Below the pieces are notes generated by a model that saw nothing but the letters and a program-made list of their open reading frames with translations, was not told the origin of the DNA and made no database searches. A DNA stretch of 45,417 bases from a virus (Duplodnaviria > Heunggongvirae > Uroviricota > Caudoviricetes): IMG/VR virus record IMGVR_UViG_2675903468_000006; one strand, 5' to 3'. This document shows positions 26,065-38,007 of the stretch, in pieces. Numbering within the stretch: position 1 is the stretch's first letter; each line of letters opens with the position of its first letter. Position numbers and translations under genes: made by a program.

Positions 26065-26140
26065 TGGTGCTGATTGACGGAGTTGAACCGCCGACATCCT
26101 GCTTACAAGGCAGGCGCTCTACCTACTGAGCTAAATCAGC
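26065..26140 (-). tRNA. tRNA-Thr (anticodon UGU), phage-borne
   Basis: 76-nt cloverleaf folded by hand: 7-bp acceptor stem, D-arm, anticodon loop CUUGUAA, T-loop TTCAACT, encoded CCA. Confidence 0.8.
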
Positions 26141-28515: not shown

Positions 28516-28970
28516 CAGGCCTCCTGCTTATCGCGCAGCTGCTGGTATTCACAGCTCTGCGGAATGGTCAGGTGGCAGCCGATATTCATCGCCCAGGCTT
28601 CGACCTTGCACAGGAAGATGTACATTTCGCCAGTTTCCAGATCAGACGTATGGCGGAGGGATTGGACGGTGGTGACCTCGCCGGACACGACGTCTACACG
28701 GTCTTTGCTTTCGTAGCCGAGATAGGTGTGCTTCATCGCGTCTTTGACCCACTCAGGCGTAGCGAAGGTCTTGCCGCGGGCGATGAGGTACTCGCTGATT
28801 TCCGTGTACCACATGTGGCTGAGCGCGTTCTGTGACAGGCTGCGCTTCTCTCGCCACGGCTTAACCTGCAGGCGGAAGCACTGCCCGGCATCCAGCAATG
28901 GCTGAATCTGCTGGCCGATGGCCGCGAAGTTGCCACGATGGAGTTTGATACCGTCTACTGGCAGAGTCAT
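28515..28970 (-). CDS. ninB: NinB recombination protein
   Basis: 151 aa, position at start of nin cluster. Confidence 0.7.
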   Translation of the reverse strand: MTLPVDGIKLHRGNFAAIGQQIQPLLDAGQCFRLQVKPWREKRSLSQNALSHMWYTEISEYLIARGKTFATPEWVKDAMKHTYLGYESKDRVDVVSGEVTTVQSLRHTSDLETGEMYIFLCKVEAWAMNIGCHLTIPQSCEYQQLRDKQEA

Positions 28971-29149
28971 ACGGCCTCCTTAACGGAAACCGCAGAATGC
29001 AGAAAATCGCAGGTGCATTTCTGCATCTGTGACAATGTGAGGAGTTCAGATTGTGGTCGCATTTAAGTCCCCTTAAATGCGCAGAAGTCACCAATGGGTG
29101 TTCAGACCATCAGCAAAGAAAGTATGGACGGTTGATTCAACAAAATCAA

Positions 29150-29176
29150 CTGAAGAGAAAGGCCTCCGGAGAGGCC
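29150..29176 (-). terminator. Intrinsic terminator after the Cys-rich moron
   Basis: GGCCTC-CGGA-GAGGCC hairpin, T-rich tract on minus strand. Confidence 0.5.
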
Positions 29177-29182
29177 AATGAG

Positions 29183-29464
29183 TTAGTCGTCCACGCGTTT
29201 AAAGCACTGCGGGCAAACATCATTTCCACCGTGTTCTTCGTATGCGCTTTTAACAGCATCAGTCATCTCTTTAAAGCTTTCGAATAGATGACTACCGTTG
29301 CTTTTTTTATAAGCTCCGGCTGCGTATTTGTAGATGTCGGACTCTTCTATGCCCTCATCAACATAAGTGCCCTCATGATGAGGGCACTGCGTTAAAGCGC
29401 CAACCCTACCAAGCATCTCCAATGCCCAACACTCTTGTTTCATGCAAAGTTGATCGATACTCAT
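29183..29464 (-). CDS. Cys-rich small protein (possible zinc-binding), moron
   Basis: Start at MSIDQL with SD AGGAGG; AT-rich; CxxxxC, CPHH and CPQC clusters; own terminator. Confidence 0.45.
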   Translation of the reverse strand: MSIDQLCMKQECWALEMLGRVGALTQCPHHEGTYVDEGIEESDIYKYAAGAYKKSNGSHLFESFKEMTDAVKSAYEEHGGNDVCPQCFKRVDD

Positions 29465-29730
29465 AACGCCTCCTGTTGGTTTTACATCGCCAAATGAATG
29501 TACCACCATGCAAGAGGAAATGAAGCAGTTAAATTGTAAAACATGTGTATATATCAATGAGTTAAAATAGTTTGCTATTTTTCTTACAGCCTTGCTGCGT
29601 CGAATGGGTTAGGCATGGCGACCTCTACACGAGCTGAAAATATAAGCCGCTACAGCCAAATCCTGAATTGCTGTTATTGCCAGCATCCAACCATAAATGC
29701 TGTCATTGAAATGCCACGCCAGCGCTGTAA

Positions 29731-29946
29731 TCACGGCTTCACCTCCTTAGCCGTTTTGACGATTGCAGCGAGGCACTTCTTGCATGGAACCTGCAATGAA
29801 CCCTGCTCAATGCTCAACAGTGCATGCTGAGCGTCCTGAAACAACCAGTCAGAAAATTGAGGCTTATGTCCGCACCATGTTTCTGTTTCATGCTTCGCAA
29901 GTTTTACGCCGTCACGATAGTCATATTTGATGATGTGATTACTCAC
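29731..29946 (-). CDS. Hypothetical protein
   Basis: 71-aa ORF overlapping the Lar-like stop. Confidence 0.4.
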   Translation of the reverse strand: MSNHIIKYDYRDGVKLAKHETETWCGHKPQFSDWLFQDAQHALLSIEQGSLQVPCKKCLAAIVKTAKEVKP

Positions 29947-30242
29947 GGCTGTACCTCCTGCTGCGGTGCTGCAATTAGTTCTAGCGTGAAGCCGTCTTGC
30001 TTAAGACTATCAATGTAAGCCGCAGTTCTCCTGCGCTCGCCAGCACATGCCAGCGTTTCTGGGTCGTAAAACCACACCTTCATTCGGCTATTCCATGCAG
30101 AAATTGCTTCAGCCTTATTGCGCTTTAATGGCCCATGAGCACCACATTTGCAGTGGACGTAGCGCTTCTTTCCCATAATACTGAATGAGTAGCCAATACC
30201 AAGCGCTGTCGATTCGCAAAATGGGCAGAGTAGTGGAGTCAT
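29943..30242 (-). CDS. lar: Lar-family restriction alleviation protein
   Basis: N-terminal CPFC...CKCG zinc-ribbon arrangement, about 99 aa. Confidence 0.55.
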   Translation of the reverse strand: MTPLLCPFCESTALGIGYSFSIMGKKRYVHCKCGAHGPLKRNKAEAISAWNSRMKVWFYDPETLACAGERRRTAAYIDSLKQDGFTLELIAAPQQEVQP

Positions 30243-30943
30243 TTATCCTCCTGCTGAGGTGCTGCTGAAGATGCAAAAATATCAATCAGCGTATCTTCTC
30301 CCATGCTATTGCAATGAGCCTGAAGCCTATTGATGATTGCCTGAAGAGCAAACTTCGGAACCATATTTTCCTTACCTATCTGCGGGCAGTTTTCGGTACC
30401 GAACCAAAATTGCTCGATCTGCAGCAGCAGACCATTTTTGCCTTCAGTTGCACTGAATACGCCGAACGCTTCAATGTCGTATGCTTTCGCAATCACAGGA
30501 GAGTTGCCATCGGCACCCTGAAGCATGGCGGCGCGGCGCTCCCAGTCAGCTATTGCGGCTGAATGTTCCATCGAGTCGTCGCCAAACTCAGCATGTGCGC
30601 ACTCGTCTGCCGCATTGGCGGCAGTTTTCGCAATCGTCAAGAGATCTGACAGGAGCGAATCAGATATCGGTGCTGGCGGGGCGGTGTAAAGCGGCTCACA
30701 TTCCCAGCCTTGCTTTTGCCAGGATGCCAGGACATTTTTTGAATCTGTCAGAAGGCCGTGATTCTCGTAATAAAGCGATCGCCACGCCACAGGATCCGCT
30801 TCGAGAGATGCCAGCGCGATACGAAACACCTCTGCAGTCATGCTGCGAGGCGACTGATTGTCATGCGCTGGGTCGGTAAGGAAGCCAGTAATAAACGCCT
30901 TCAATTGCTGATTGTGAATATCGCGTTTGTCGATGTTGCTCAT
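30239..30943 (-). CDS. Hypothetical protein
   Basis: Start set at ATG after SD GGAGGA; the track's longer start is a TTG inside the SD. Confidence 0.45.
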   Translation of the reverse strand: MSNIDKRDIHNQQLKAFITGFLTDPAHDNQSPRSMTAEVFRIALASLEADPVAWRSLYYENHGLLTDSKNVLASWQKQGWECEPLYTAPPAPISDSLLSDLLTIAKTAANAADECAHAEFGDDSMEHSAAIADWERRAAMLQGADGNSPVIAKAYDIEAFGVFSATEGKNGLLLQIEQFWFGTENCPQIGKENMVPKFALQAIINRLQAHCNSMGEDTLIDIFASSAAPQQEDK

Positions 30944-31587
30944 TGGGCGGTCCTCCAACCTTCACATTCAATGTCACTGCAGCCATCGAAATCGTATGGA
31001 TTTAGCTGCCAGCTAATCTTTCCGCAGCAAGGGCAATTCCAGCGAACCTTACCGCTGCGTGATTTTTTTCGGTTGTGCTTTTTCAGCCACTCAGGCATGA
31101 CAAGCCCTGCCGCCTGAACCATGGTGCGTCGGTTAAACTCATTGATGCTGAACGTGCGGCGCTTAGCCTTGTCAGCTAAAGCAAAAGGAATCCAGACAAT
31201 GCCAGGCTCTGCCGTGTTGGCGGATACAAAAACGAATGCCTTACTGAAGTCGTCAGTTGGAAGGCCTCCATGTTGCAACCAGTACACATCGTTACCGTTC
31301 CAACTGCCTTTTTTGTAGGCCACATAGGACTCACAGCCAGGCTCAATAACACTTTCGGTAGGTATGTACTGACAATCGACATGCCAGACAGCCATGGAAT
31401 CAACACTGTCAGCGCAAACCGGCTGATCAATCTCTCTACCCAATTCCCAGCTTCTTTGAGCTTCTTCACGGGTGTACACGTGGGCGCGGTCTATATTGGA
31501 GCTATATCCGTTGCCGTTGTGGCAGTGGAATGACGCGTTACTGCCAACCGTTTCGCGAGTACAAAGCATGTAAAATCTATCGCTCAT
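30940..31587 (-). CDS. Hypothetical protein with C-terminal Cys cluster
   Basis: 215 aa; NCPCCG...C.IEC at the C-terminus. Confidence 0.45.
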   Translation of the reverse strand: MSDRFYMLCTRETVGSNASFHCHNGNGYSSNIDRAHVYTREEAQRSWELGREIDQPVCADSVDSMAVWHVDCQYIPTESVIEPGCESYVAYKKGSWNGNDVYWLQHGGLPTDDFSKAFVFVSANTAEPGIVWIPFALADKAKRRTFSINEFNRRTMVQAAGLVMPEWLKKHNRKKSRSGKVRWNCPCCGKISWQLNPYDFDGCSDIECEGWRTAQ

Positions 31588-37149: not shown

Positions 37150-37338
37150 GCGATTTCTTGCTGTTGGGGAATAGCGGGAAAGCGCGCGCCGGGCGCGGAT
37201 AAATACCCCGGCAATAACTGGAATGTTTTGTAGTGCAGTGAATTGCAGCTGCATCGACGGCAACCGGAAGATAAGCACCCGGCGCTGCACCACAAAGCAT
37301 TTCTCCCGCATCAGCGGGTAACGACAGAGGGTAAGTCA

Positions 37339-38007
37339 ATGATTCGTCTTAACAACGAAATTAAAAATCAGCTATGCCATAACCTGCTTCTCGCATCCCC
37401 ATTGTTTGAGAAAGCGAAAGCTGCGGTTAATGAGAGGGCGAAAATTGTTGAAGAAATTCGACAGGCATTGCTCAAGCAGGAAAACACTAGCGATGAGCAA
37501 ATAACTAAGGCTCGGGAAGATTTCAAAGATAACTCCTTCATCAAGATGAAGGTCGGCGCTAAAACTGCAATTTTAAAGGTCATTATTAATGGTGAGTATC
37601 ACGAATTAGCCAGGAACGGTTTGGATCATCGCTATCGCCACCGTGGAAAACATATTGGTAAGCACGATCTTGAAAGCGACCTGTTCTTCGGAGCTTCCTT
37701 CGCGCCTGTAATTGATTCGGGTTTCGTTCCTGAAAGTTACAGCACGCTGAAGAAAGTTGGAAAATTACACGACCGACTCACTGAATCGACGGTAACCATC
37801 AACGTTCTTTACGATGAAGTTGATGCCTTCCAATTGCAGGTTAAAGGTGCTCTAACCAAAGTCTCAACTGTTAAAAAACTGGCTGAGATGTGGCCTGAGG
37901 CAGTGCCATATTTGCCTGAGGTGGAACGCCGTGAAGCGACCAGCACCGCACTTGCCATTCCCGTTGAAACGCTAAACGCCCTTTGCGGCATACCAAAGAA
38001 TGAATGA
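37339..38007 (+). CDS. Hypothetical 222-aa protein, AT-rich moron immediately downstream of OL
   Basis: SD GAGGGTAAG; own terminator; no recognisable family. Confidence 0.55.
   Translation: MIRLNNEIKNQLCHNLLLASPLFEKAKAAVNERAKIVEEIRQALLKQENTSDEQITKAREDFKDNSFIKMKVGAKTAILKVIINGEYHELARNGLDHRYRHRGKHIGKHDLESDLFFGASFAPVIDSGFVPESYSTLKKVGKLHDRLTESTVTINVLYDEVDAFQLQVKGALTKVSTVKKLAEMWPEAVPYLPEVERREATSTALAIPVETLNALCGIPKNE

What the first reader, a model, noticed from the sequence alone, without database searches (positions are those of the whole stretch)
29150..29560. Cys-rich small-protein moron in the nin region
Seen in sequence: a 93-aa ORF (29183..29464, minus) in AT-rich DNA with SD AGGAGG, its own terminator and several Cys/His clusters. 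It sits close to the Lar-like anti-restriction gene. Inference: a zinc-binding accessory protein, possibly an anti-defence or regulatory factor.
Basis: partly seen in the sequence, partly recalled or inferred. Interest (0 to 1): 0.45.

Follow-up and report, generated by a model that had tools for sequence, protein, structure and literature searches.

The report
Lambda Ea8.5-family zinc protein cassette
The 93-codon gene is real and is an unrecognised copy of phage lambda's small zinc-binding protein Ea8.5, a known family whose function is still unknown, carried here as a self-contained insert in a different part of a prophage genome; it is a fairly ordinary finding.

Summary
ORF 29183..29464 (-) has 93 codons, an AGGAGG Shine-Dalgarno, lower G+C than the window, and a hairpin plus T-run after the stop.

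It is not an orphan. It matches Pfam PF20735 (Lambda_ea8_5) at 76 bits. It is 50.5% identical end to end to lambda Ea8.5. It matches the NMR structure 2M7A at E=1e-19.

Of its 5 Cys and 4 His, only C27, H30, C84 and C87 (CX2H...CX2C) are conserved, in 134-140 of 140 family representatives. That is one zinc site, not several clusters.

The gene sits on a ~407-bp cassette (~29177..29583). The cassette lies between a conserved junction sequence and a terminator that already belongs to the ninB-upstream region; an E. coli prophage has junction and terminator without the gene.

About 120 nt upstream travel with the gene between the nin, exo-xis/int and late-gene positions. The best-conserved block is GTGGTACATT, which has extended -10 form.

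So "moron" is largely supported, but the promoter is inferred and the terminator is not the gene's own. The family is strongly acidic (median pI 4.7). That favours protein binding over DNA binding.

Nothing links it to anti-restriction: the Lar-like neighbour is specific to this lineage. Verdict: a new member of a known family of unknown function, of low to moderate interest.

The parts
29183..29464 (-). Ea8.5-family gene: 93 aa, single domain. Predicted zinc ligands are C27, H30, C84 and C87. pI 4.8, net charge -8.
   Evidence: - ORF and translation.
- PF20735, 76 bits against a cutoff of 27. phrog_6325, E=1e-31.
- 2M7A, E=1.3e-19.
- 50.5% identity to lambda Ea8.5 over residues 1-93.
- Ligand conservation in 134-140 of 140 representatives.
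- AF2 model, pLDDT 77.8, matched by Foldseek only to 2M7A and 2M7B.
- pI.
29469..29474 (-). Shine-Dalgarno AGGAGG, 4 nt before the ATG.
   Evidence: Read from the sequence. GGAGG or GGGGG is kept in all diverged homologues.
29497..29506 (-). GTGGTACATT, the most conserved block of the whole cassette. It has extended -10 promoter form: TG at 29505..29504, one base, then TACATT at 29502..29497. It would place a transcription start near 29490 and give a leader of about 26 nt.
   Evidence: - The 10-nt window starting at -39 has mean column conservation 0.91, higher than any coding window.
- The block is kept in copies at both the nin and the exo-xis/int positions.
- Its function as a promoter is inferred. 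The canonical -35/-10 scan found nothing here.
29535..29564 (-). Conserved upstream block TAACTCATTGATATATACACATGTTTTACA. It contains a match to the IHF consensus (WATCAANNNNTTR, on the + strand at 29552..29564) and a TTTACA hexamer (29540..29535).
   Evidence: - Conservation across homologues.
- IHF-consensus match. It is one of only 2 in the window against 1.28 expected, so it carries no weight on its own.
- The role of this block is unknown.
29177..29583 (-). The inserted cassette, about 407 bp: the conserved 120-nt upstream region plus the gene. It is delimited by loss of homology on both sides.
   Evidence: - Conservation falls to background (0.53) upstream of -120.
- Homology with the gene-less E. 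coli KCJ3K291 prophage begins at the terminator stem.
- Homology with the Enterobacter phages ends at 29108.
29153..29176 (-). Intrinsic-terminator-like hairpin (6-bp stem, UCCG loop) followed by TTTCTCTT. It is a resident element of the ninB-upstream region, not part of the insert.
   Evidence: - Found by the scan.
- Present 6 nt after the junction sequence in L053, which lacks the gene.
- Copies at the exo-xis/int position, and lambda, use a different hairpin (t3-lambda in PMC4195576).
29584..29616 (-). Junction sequence ATGCCTAACCCATTCGACGCA (29616..29596). It can be read as a mini-ORF, MPNPFDAARL, ending at 29584. It marks the upstream edge of the insertion.
   Evidence: The same sequence closes different upstream genes in HL15 (L001), KCJ3K291 (L053) and phi80 (L054).

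Best explanation
**What it is**
- The ORF encodes a member of the phage lambda Ea8.5 family (Pfam PF20735).
- It is a roughly 93-residue single-domain protein: three helices and a small beta-hairpin, pinned by one zinc ion. The ligands are a CX2H motif (C27, H30) and a C-terminal CX2C knuckle (C84, C87).

**How it is carried**
- The gene rides on a ~407-bp cassette (about 29177..29583) that also holds about 120 nt of conserved upstream DNA.
- In this Enterobacter-type lambdoid prophage the cassette sits in the nin region of the rightward early operon.
- It lies between a conserved junction sequence and a pre-existing terminator just upstream of ninB.
- In lambda and some other prophages the same kind of cassette sits between exo and xis/int instead. 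A distant relative sits between terminase and portal.

**Shown here**
- Family membership.
- Conservation of the four ligands.
- The fold match.
- The insertion boundaries.
- The several genomic positions.
- Conservation of the upstream DNA.
- The acidic charge of the family.

**Inferred**
1. The conserved GTGGTACATT block is an extended -10 sigma-70 promoter. It would let the gene be transcribed on its own as well as by read-through from the early operon.
2. The resident terminator would stop such a transcript before ninB and Q.
3. The protein is strongly acidic and dispensable in lambda, so it most likely acts by binding another protein rather than DNA. Its likely effect is to tune phage development or host physiology.
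4. Published multicopy experiments with lambda ea8.5 point to lower activity of CII-dependent promoters and a push towards lytic growth. I take that as the most likely direction of effect.

**My estimates**
- Family membership and zinc site: about 0.95.
- Autonomous cassette: about 0.8.
- Own promoter: about 0.55.
- Protein-binding modulator of development: about 0.45.
For: **Family and zinc site**
- PF20735 scores 76 bits against a cutoff of 27. phrog_6325 matches at E=1e-31.
- 2M7A matches at E=1.3e-19 and 2M7B at E=0.003.
- The protein is 50.5% identical to lambda Ea8.5 over residues 1-93.
- Among 140 representatives of 50%-identity clusters: C27 139/140, H30 134/140 (plus 3 Cys), C84 140/140, C87 137/140.

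**Fold**
- The AF2 model has pLDDT 77.8.
- The only significant Foldseek match (E<=0.001) is 2M7A (TM 0.61/0.64). 2M7B is next at E=0.011 (probability 1.00, TM 0.60/0.70); every other match has E>2.

**A real gene**
- Codon-position conservation is 0.85/0.88/0.65.
- The exact protein is listed in 918 blocks of the assembly index, and on more than 435 contigs by the cluster look-up.

**Cassette**
- The gene-less arrangement, junction then 6 nt then terminator, is seen in L053.
- Homology with Enterobacter phages stops at 29108.
- G+C is 45% for the ORF and 37.5% for the spacer, against 52.6% for the window.
- Upstream neighbours vary while ninB stays 492-494 nt downstream of the gene's start.

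**Several positions in the genome**
- Nin region, against exo-xis/int in lambda, L011-L015, L044, L048 and L049.
- Between terminase and portal in L056.

**Upstream conservation**
- Mean conservation over -120..-1 is 0.73. The GTGGTACATT block scores 0.91.

**Charge**
- Query pI is 4.83 with net charge -8. The family median pI is 4.7, and 89% of members are below 5.5.

**Literature**
- Zinc-finger/homeodomain hybrid fold: PMC8614690 and PMC4195576, both citing Kwan et al. 2013.
- Lambda ea8.5 reported as expressed in uninduced lysogens: PMC4195576, citing Liu et al. 2013.
- ea8.5 lowers paQ and pI activity in multicopy: PMC7093339.
- Non-essential in a CRISPRi screen: PMC10695390.
Against: - No function has ever been demonstrated for any family member. 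The lambda data come from multicopy plasmids, and the yeast two-hybrid partners were flagged as promiscuous (PMC3224144).
- The promoter is not confirmed. The canonical -35/-10 scan found nothing in 29465..29608 and the best -35 candidates match only 2-3 of 6 positions.
- TGnTAnnnT is a low-information motif, so the case rests on conservation among related sequences.
- The upstream blocks could instead serve translation, RNA processing or binding of a regulator.
- The lambda copy has only a degenerate version of the block, TGATACCGT.
- Zinc binding is inferred from homology and was not measured.
- The AF2 model is of only moderate confidence.
Confidence: 0.75

Rival explanations
1. It is a sequence-specific DNA-binding regulator, using the homeodomain-like helices plus the zinc finger. 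It would repress phage promoters such as the CII-dependent ones, or regulate itself through the conserved upstream blocks that travel with it.
For: - The published structure is described as a homeodomain/zinc-finger hybrid, and a regulatory role has been proposed (PMC4195576, PMC8614690).
- Multicopy ea8.5 lowers paQ and pI activity (PMC7093339).
- Conserved non-coding blocks move with the gene.
Against: - The protein is strongly acidic: pI 4.83, net charge -8. So is the family: median pI 4.7, and only 1.4% of members are above 7.5. Homeodomains and most DNA-binding helix bundles are basic (general knowledge).
- Foldseek finds nothing significant outside the family.
- No DNA binding has been reported in the papers read.
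Confidence: 0.15
2. It is an anti-restriction or other anti-defence protein that works alongside the nearby Lar-like gene. Small and acidic, it would inhibit a host defence protein.
For: - It is small, acidic and dispensable, and it sits in a variable cargo position (PMC10695390).
- A Lar-family gene lies about 480 bp upstream.
- Some distant homologues lie next to GmrSD_N, DUF4365 or Ea47-like genes.
Against: - Lar is adjacent only in the 100%-identical lineage. Copies 89-94% identical, and all copies at the exo-xis/int position, lack it.
- The protein has no similarity to Lar or to any named anti-restriction family. PADLOC, which models defence systems rather than anti-defence proteins, also gave no hit.
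- No conserved partner gene is seen across the contexts examined.
- No anti-defence phenotype is reported in the papers read.
Confidence: 0.1
3. The gene is not transcriptionally autonomous. It is simply one more delayed-early gene read from the rightward early promoter. The conserved upstream 120 nt would act at the RNA level, in translation control or processing, or as recombination linker DNA.
For: - The gene has the same orientation as the early operon in every context examined: nin, exo-xis and late regions.
- The canonical promoter scan was negative.
- In the single-sequence fold, a C/U-rich tract can pair with the Shine-Dalgarno sequence.
Against: - RNAalifold gives essentially no consensus structure: -1.95 kcal/mol, with one compensatory pair.
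- The single-sequence z-score is only -1.56. Rfam finds nothing.
- The sharpest conservation has the TGnTAnnnT form, at the right distance from the Shine-Dalgarno and ATG.
- Lambda ea8.5 is reported as expressed in repressed lysogens (PMC4195576, citing Liu et al. 2013).
Confidence: 0.3
4. The ORF is a chance open reading frame and not a gene.
For: ORFs of this length are common in six-frame translations.
Against: - Curated Pfam hit at 76 bits.
- Solved structures of homologues.
- Coding pattern of codon-position conservation.
- 195 representative clusters in the family.
Confidence: 0.01

Closest known systems
Bacteriophage lambda Ea8.5 (gene ea8.5, NP_040611; Pfam PF20735 Lambda_ea8_5)
   Same: - Same length, 93 aa.
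- 50.5% identity over the full length.
- Same CX2H...CX2C ligand set and the same acidic charge (pI 4.8).
- Also preceded by a non-coding spacer with a degenerate copy of the conserved block.
- Also followed by a terminator hairpin.
   Different: - Lambda's copy lies in the leftward early operon between ea22 and xis. This one lies in the rightward operon just before ninB.
- The terminator behind it is a different sequence.
- The upstream block is a much better extended -10 match here than in lambda.
E. coli O111 prophage protein EC0111_1119 (PDB 2M7A) and Pseudomonas putida PP_3909 (PDB 2M7B), the solved Ea8.5 homologues
   Same: - Sequence match to 2M7A at E=1.3e-19 over residues 1-93.
- The ligand positions align.
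   Different: - The extra Cys at positions 7 and 12 in this protein are not family features.
Lambdoid 'morons' (extra transcription units inserted between conserved genes, as defined for HK97/HK022 by Hendrix and colleagues; from my own knowledge)
   Same: - Precise presence/absence relative to an otherwise homologous backbone.
- Lower G+C than the flanks.
- Non-coding spacers on both sides.
- A promoter-like element upstream and a terminator downstream.
   Different: - The promoter is only inferred.
- The terminator belongs to the recipient site.
- Expression from the repressed prophage has not been shown for this copy.
Lar / restriction-alleviation proteins (PF14354, TIGR03655)
   Same: Small Cys-containing prophage accessory protein, in the same gene neighbourhood in this window.
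   Different: No sequence similarity. Only the neighbour at 29943..30242 matches these models, and the adjacency is not conserved.

Membership tests
Lambda Ea8.5 family (Pfam PF20735) | Sequence match to the family model above the curated gathering score | tested here: met
   76 bits against a cutoff of 27, E=3.7e-21, covering profile positions 3-90 of 90. The PHROG family phrog_6325 matches at E=1e-31.
Lambda Ea8.5 family (Pfam PF20735) | Single-domain protein of about 90-100 aa, collinear with lambda Ea8.5 | tested here: met
   93 aa against 93 aa, 50.5% identity over residues 1-93. Most of the 150 listed family hits are 85-110 aa.
Lambda Ea8.5 family (Pfam PF20735) | Four zinc ligands: CX2H near residue 27-30 and CX2C near the C-terminus | tested here: met
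   C27, H30, C84 and C87 are present. They are conserved in 139, 134 (plus 3 Cys), 140 and 137 of 140 representatives respectively.
Lambda Ea8.5 family (Pfam PF20735) | Fold of the solved homologues (helical core, beta-hairpin, zinc knuckle) | tested here: met
   [not shown]
Lambda Ea8.5 family (Pfam PF20735) | Actual zinc binding | not testable with these tools
   Needs metal analysis of purified protein. Inferred only from homology to the NMR structures described as zinc-finger hybrids (PMC8614690).
Moron (autonomous extra gene unit in a lambdoid genome) | Present or absent at a precise point between otherwise homologous genomes | tested here: met
   The E. coli KCJ3K291 prophage has the junction ...CCCATTCGACGCATAA, then 6 nt, then the same terminator and ninB-upstream DNA, with no Ea8.5-like gene.
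Moron (autonomous extra gene unit in a lambdoid genome) | Base composition different from the flanking genes | tested here: met
   ORF 45.0% and spacer 37.5% G+C, against 52.6% for the window and 57.9% for ninB.
Moron (autonomous extra gene unit in a lambdoid genome) | Own promoter | tested here: inconclusive
   The conserved TGnTAnnnT block at 29505..29497 is the best-conserved 10 nt of the cassette. However, the canonical -35/-10 scan was negative and there are no transcript data.
Moron (autonomous extra gene unit in a lambdoid genome) | Own terminator | tested here: not met
   A good terminator-like hairpin follows the gene. It is also present in the gene-less arrangement, so it belongs to the site and not to the insert. 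It can still serve the gene functionally.
Moron (autonomous extra gene unit in a lambdoid genome) | Expression from the repressed prophage | not testable with these tools
   The only support is a literature report for lambda ea8.5, cited second hand in PMC4195576.
Lar-type restriction alleviation (PF14354 / TIGR03655) | Sequence match to the Lar models | tested here: not met
   The ORF has no hit to these models. Only the neighbour at 29943..30242 matches them.
Homeodomain-type DNA-binding regulators | Basic, DNA-contacting helix bundle, with specific structural similarity to homeodomains | tested here: not met
   [not shown]

The most novel reading that the evidence does not exclude
Ea8.5-family genes may be self-expressing cargo cassettes. 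A conserved promoter of extended -10 type, possibly assisted by IHF, would keep them transcribed even in the repressed prophage. The acidic zinc protein would neutralise a specific host or rival-phage protein, for example a defence or cell-division factor. That would explain why the same ~400-bp unit has been captured at the nin, exo-xis and late-gene positions of unrelated phages.
Probability: 0.2. Interest if true: 0.5.

Novelty: new member of a known kind. Interest (0 to 1): 0.27.

Why it matters
Ea8.5 is one of the last lambda genes with a solved fold but no known function. One review calls it exclusive to lambda among the phages it compared. This window shows three things.

- The family is common in Enterobacter-complex prophages: the exact protein is indexed in 918 blocks of the assembly collection, and the cluster look-up counts it on more than 435 contigs.
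- It moves as a compact cassette with its own conserved upstream DNA.
- It can sit in either early operon, or among late genes.

That gives concrete handles for experiments. There is a defined 120-nt putative control region and a putative promoter to mutate. Natural "with" and "without" prophage pairs are available. The charge argument steers experiments towards protein partners rather than DNA targets. Beyond that, the finding is an annotation improvement for a gene that public records call hypothetical.

Tried and rejected
- **Conserved RNA structure in the leader.** RNAalifold on nine diverged copies gave -1.95 kcal/mol with a single compensatory pair. The single-sequence fold has z=-1.56. 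Rejected as unsupported.
- **Known RNA families.** The Rfam gathering scan of the whole window found only a tRNA.
- **Sigma-54 promoter reading of TGGTAC...TTGC.** Checked by eye on the alignment. The spacing between the GG and GC elements varies between copies, so I rejected it.
- **Canonical sigma-70 promoter from TTGATA plus TACAAT.** The spacer is 13 nt, too short. Rejected by inspection.
- **IHF site significance.** The consensus occurs twice in the window against 1.28 expected. It is kept only as a conserved block of unknown role.
- **PADLOC and NCBIfam.** No hit for the ORF.
- **Relationship to the neighbouring 71-aa Cys-containing ORF.** hhalign probability 0.3%. Unrelated.
- **Species-representative genomes scan.** It returned one locus only, L016. 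The broad alignment A2 was too diverse to seed a scan.
- **Papers not held.** Kwan et al. 2013 and Liu et al. 2013 could not be read. Their content is cited second hand.
- **Conserved partner gene.** None emerged from 50 close loci or from five look-ups of distant relatives, six loci in all.

Full report
**1. The observation**

- On the minus strand an ATG at 29464 opens a 93-codon frame that ends with TAA at 29185..29183.
- AGGAGG lies at 29474..29469, four bases before the ATG.
- The ORF is 45.0% G+C and the 144-bp spacer upstream (29465..29608) is 37.5%. The window is 52.6% and the next gene, ninB, is 57.9%.
- Six bases after the stop there is a hairpin, GGCCTC-TCCG-GAGGCC (29176..29161), followed by TTTCTCTT. 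The terminator scan reports it.
- The protein has five Cys (7, 12, 27, 84, 87) and four His (29, 30, 59, 78).
- The setting is the nin region of a lambdoid prophage. A CI-like repressor lies on the plus strand. On the minus strand the order is a cro-sized gene, YdaT, replication genes including a DnaB helicase, several accessory genes, a Lar-family gene (29943..30242), a 71-aa and a 41-aa ORF, this ORF, then NinB, NinE, a phosphatase, NinG and Q.

**2. What the gene is**

It is not an orphan.

- It matches Pfam PF20735, "Bacteriophage lambda ea8.5-related domain", at 76 bits against a gathering score of 27. It also matches a PHROG family of unknown function.
- It is 50.5% identical to lambda Ea8.5 over all 93 residues of both proteins.
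- It matches the NMR structure 2M7A (E. coli O111 prophage protein EC0111_1119) at E=1.3e-19, and 2M7B (Pseudomonas putida PP_3909) at E=0.003.
- Those structures are described as a hybrid homeodomain/zinc-finger fold (PMC8614690 and PMC4195576, citing Kwan et al. 2013, which I could not read).
- An AlphaFold model built on 70 family sequences has pLDDT 77.8.
- By Foldseek it matches 2M7A (E=3.8e-5) and then 2M7B (E=0.011); every other PDB match has E>2.

**3. The Cys/His question**

An exhaustive profile search found 195 representative clusters, each at 50% identity. I aligned 140 proteins of 80-115 aa: 138 from the two protein searches, plus the query and lambda Ea8.5.

| Residue | Conserved in |
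|---|---|
| C27 | 139/140 |
| H30 | 134/140, plus 3 with Cys |
| C84 | 140/140 |
| C87 | 137/140 |

C7, C12, H29, H59 and H78 are not conserved. The "several clusters" are one CX2H...CX2C site.

**4. A real, widespread gene**

- Across nine diverged copies, column conservation at codon positions 1, 2 and 3 is 0.85, 0.88 and 0.65. This is the signature of a translated gene.
- The exact protein is listed in 918 blocks of the assembly index, and the cluster look-up counts it on more than 435 contigs. Nearly all of the listed records are from the Enterobacter cloacae complex, with a few from E. coli and Salmonella. All call it "hypothetical protein".

**5. The cassette and its boundaries**

- Homology of the window with the Enterobacter phages CobraSix, ENT1 and BHUENT3/6 runs through ninB and stops at 29108.
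- An E. coli prophage (strain KCJ3K291, L053) has the same ninB-upstream DNA, including the GGCCTC hairpin. There the hairpin is preceded, six bases away, by ...ATGCCTGACCCATTCGACGCATAA, with no Ea8.5-like gene.
- In the window the same junction sequence, ATGCCTAACCCATTCGACGCA, lies at 29616..29596.
- The gene and its upstream DNA therefore lie between the junction and the hairpin.
- In the multi-copy alignment, conservation drops to background (0.53) upstream of -120 relative to the ATG, at about 29583.
- The insert is thus roughly 29177..29583, about 407 bp.
- The terminator belongs to the recipient site, not to the insert. From my own recollection of the lambda map, this is the position of tR2, just before ninB. 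I did not check that here.
- Copies that lie at the exo-xis/int position, and lambda itself, are followed by a different hairpin. It is the one published as predicted terminator t3-lambda.

**6. Where family members sit**

| Position | Loci |
|---|---|
| Nin region; ninB, where recognised, starts 492-494 nt after the gene's start | All copies at least 75% identical, plus L016, L046, L047; L009/L010 lie in the nin region ahead of DinI and a Q-like gene instead |
| Just upstream of xis/int, after a TraR/orf73-like gene or other genes | Lambda, L011-L015, L044, L048, L049 |
| Between terminase and portal, about 310 nt of non-coding DNA on each side | L056 (distant relative) |
| Beside an Ea47-like gene and a DUF4365 gene | L059 |
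| Near a GmrSD_N gene | L057 |

Upstream neighbours in the nin-region copies vary. Lar is adjacent only in the lineage whose copy is 100% identical to the window. No conserved partner gene emerged.

**7. The upstream DNA**

- The 120 nt before the ATG are conserved in copies down to 52% protein identity, and across the nin and exo-xis/int positions.
- Mean column conservation is 0.73, between third and first codon positions.
- The single best-conserved 10-nt window in the entire cassette, coding part included, is GGTACATTCA at 0.91. It is the core of GTGGTACATT, 29506..29497.
- This block reads TG-n-TACATT, the form of an extended -10 sigma-70 promoter.
- A start about 7 nt downstream would give a leader of about 26 nt carrying the Shine-Dalgarno sequence.
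- The -35 position holds only a conserved CTT, and the simple -35/-10 scan finds nothing there.
- Further upstream, a conserved block (29535..29564) contains a match to the IHF consensus and a TTTACA hexamer. The IHF pattern occurs twice in the window against 1.28 expected, so it carries no weight on its own.
- An RNA-structure explanation has no support. RNAalifold gives -1.95 kcal/mol with one compensatory pair, the single-sequence z-score is -1.56, and Rfam has no hit.
- PMC4195576, citing Liu et al. 2013, reports that lambda ea8.5 is among the genes expressed in uninduced lysogens. That fits a promoter of its own. I could not read the primary paper.

**8. How it most likely works**

Shown here:
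- A zinc-site-bearing Ea8.5-family protein.
- A compact cassette that is present or absent at a precise junction.
- Conserved cis DNA that travels with it.

Inferred:
- Transcription from an extended -10 promoter in addition to read-through from the early operon.
- The resident hairpin stopping that transcript before ninB and Q.

On the protein's action, one computed property is informative. The query has pI 4.83 and net charge -8. The family median pI is 4.7, 89% of members are below 5.5, and 1.4% are above 7.5. That is the opposite of homeodomains and most DNA-binding helix bundles. I therefore favour action through a protein partner.

The literature offers only indirect hints:
- Multicopy ea8.5 lowers activity of the CII-dependent promoters paQ and, weakly, pI (PMC7093339).
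- An ea8.5 frameshift in a multicopy exo-xis plasmid delays development after H2O2 induction (PMC4195576).
- Yeast two-hybrid partners are many, and the authors call the bait promiscuous (PMC3224144).
- The gene is non-essential (PMC10695390).

I take [quoted passage not shown] as the best guess, at about 0.45. The DNA-binding regulator reading gets about 0.15 and the anti-defence reading about 0.1.

**9. Comparison with what is known, and novelty**

- Membership of the Ea8.5 family is met on every testable criterion: model score, length and collinearity, ligands and fold.
- The moron label is met for indel polymorphism and composition. It is inconclusive for the promoter and not met for an own terminator.
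- The protein is not a Lar-type protein.
- What is new is modest. Ea8.5-family genes are abundant outside lambda. They occupy the nin region in Enterobacter-type prophages. They move with about 120 nt of conserved upstream DNA whose best block looks like an extended -10 promoter.
- I rate it a new member of a known kind, with interest about 0.27.

Noticed in passing
window 29584..29616 (-); also L053 2587..2607, L054 1743..1766, L001 near 5480: A junction sequence, ATGCC(T/-)(A/G)ACCCATTCGACGCA, closes quite different upstream genes in this prophage, in two E. coli prophages and in phi80. It can be read as a tiny ORF, M(P/Q)(N/D)PFDA..., that overlaps the stop of the preceding gene (TGATG in phi80). 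It marks the point where cargo is inserted ahead of ninB. Whether it is a recombination linker or a translated mini-ORF is open.
   Followed up: partly
window 28967..29062 (-) and hairpin about 29054..29081: A 31-codon ORF (MRPQSELLTLSQMQKCTCDFLHSAVSVKEAV) ends in ATGA overlapping the ninB start. It is conserved, with synonymous-type changes, in HL15, KCJ3K291, phi80 and CobraSix. Its Shine-Dalgarno sequence and ATG lie inside a perfect 10-bp inverted repeat (CGCATTTAAG-GGGA-CTTAAATGCG) that the phi80 record annotates as IR4. This stretch is 98% identical in HK639 and Klebsiella phage KO-TP1, where nothing is annotated.
   Followed up: partly
window 29131..29150 (-): A second AT-rich inverted repeat, GTTGATTT-TGTT-GAATCAAC, lies right after the terminator. 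It is conserved with loop changes in other nin-region copies, and as TTTGATT...AATCAAG in CobraSix and TTGATA...TATCAA in phi80. Its role is unknown.
   Followed up: no
window 29609..29734 (-): A 41-codon ORF with a GTG start overlaps the stop of the 71-aa gene (GTGA). Its sequence, MITALAWHFNDSIYGWMLAITAIQDLAVAAYIFSSCRGRHA, is hydrophobic. Gene callers called it in L005 and L007 but not in other identical loci. It has no family hit.
   Followed up: no
window 29731..31587 (-): Three further genes upstream of the 41-aa ORF also carry Cys motifs that look like metal sites. They are the 71-aa phrog_4090 protein (WCGH...PCKKC), the Lar-family protein (CPFC...HCKC) and the 215-aa phrog_2457 protein (CPCCGK...CSDIEC). 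The 71-aa protein is unrelated to the Ea8.5 family (hhalign probability 0.3%).
   Followed up: partly
L053 2600..2854 (-): In E. coli KCJ3K291 the slot ahead of the same junction and terminator holds a different 84-aa gene of unknown function, with no NCBIfam hit. The region just upstream of ninB therefore seems to act as a general cargo site.
   Followed up: no
window 26065..26140 (-): A tRNA-Thr (anticodon TGT) lies between Q and the holin gene. The related phage CobraSix is annotated with a tRNA-Arg in the stretch that matches this part of the window.
   Followed up: no
window 37243..38007 (+): At the position where related prophages such as L003 carry an N-type antiterminator, this window has a gene with an Nmad5 (nucleotide-modification-associated) domain. 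No N-like protein was identified here, so how the nin-region terminator is read through is unclear.
   Followed up: no
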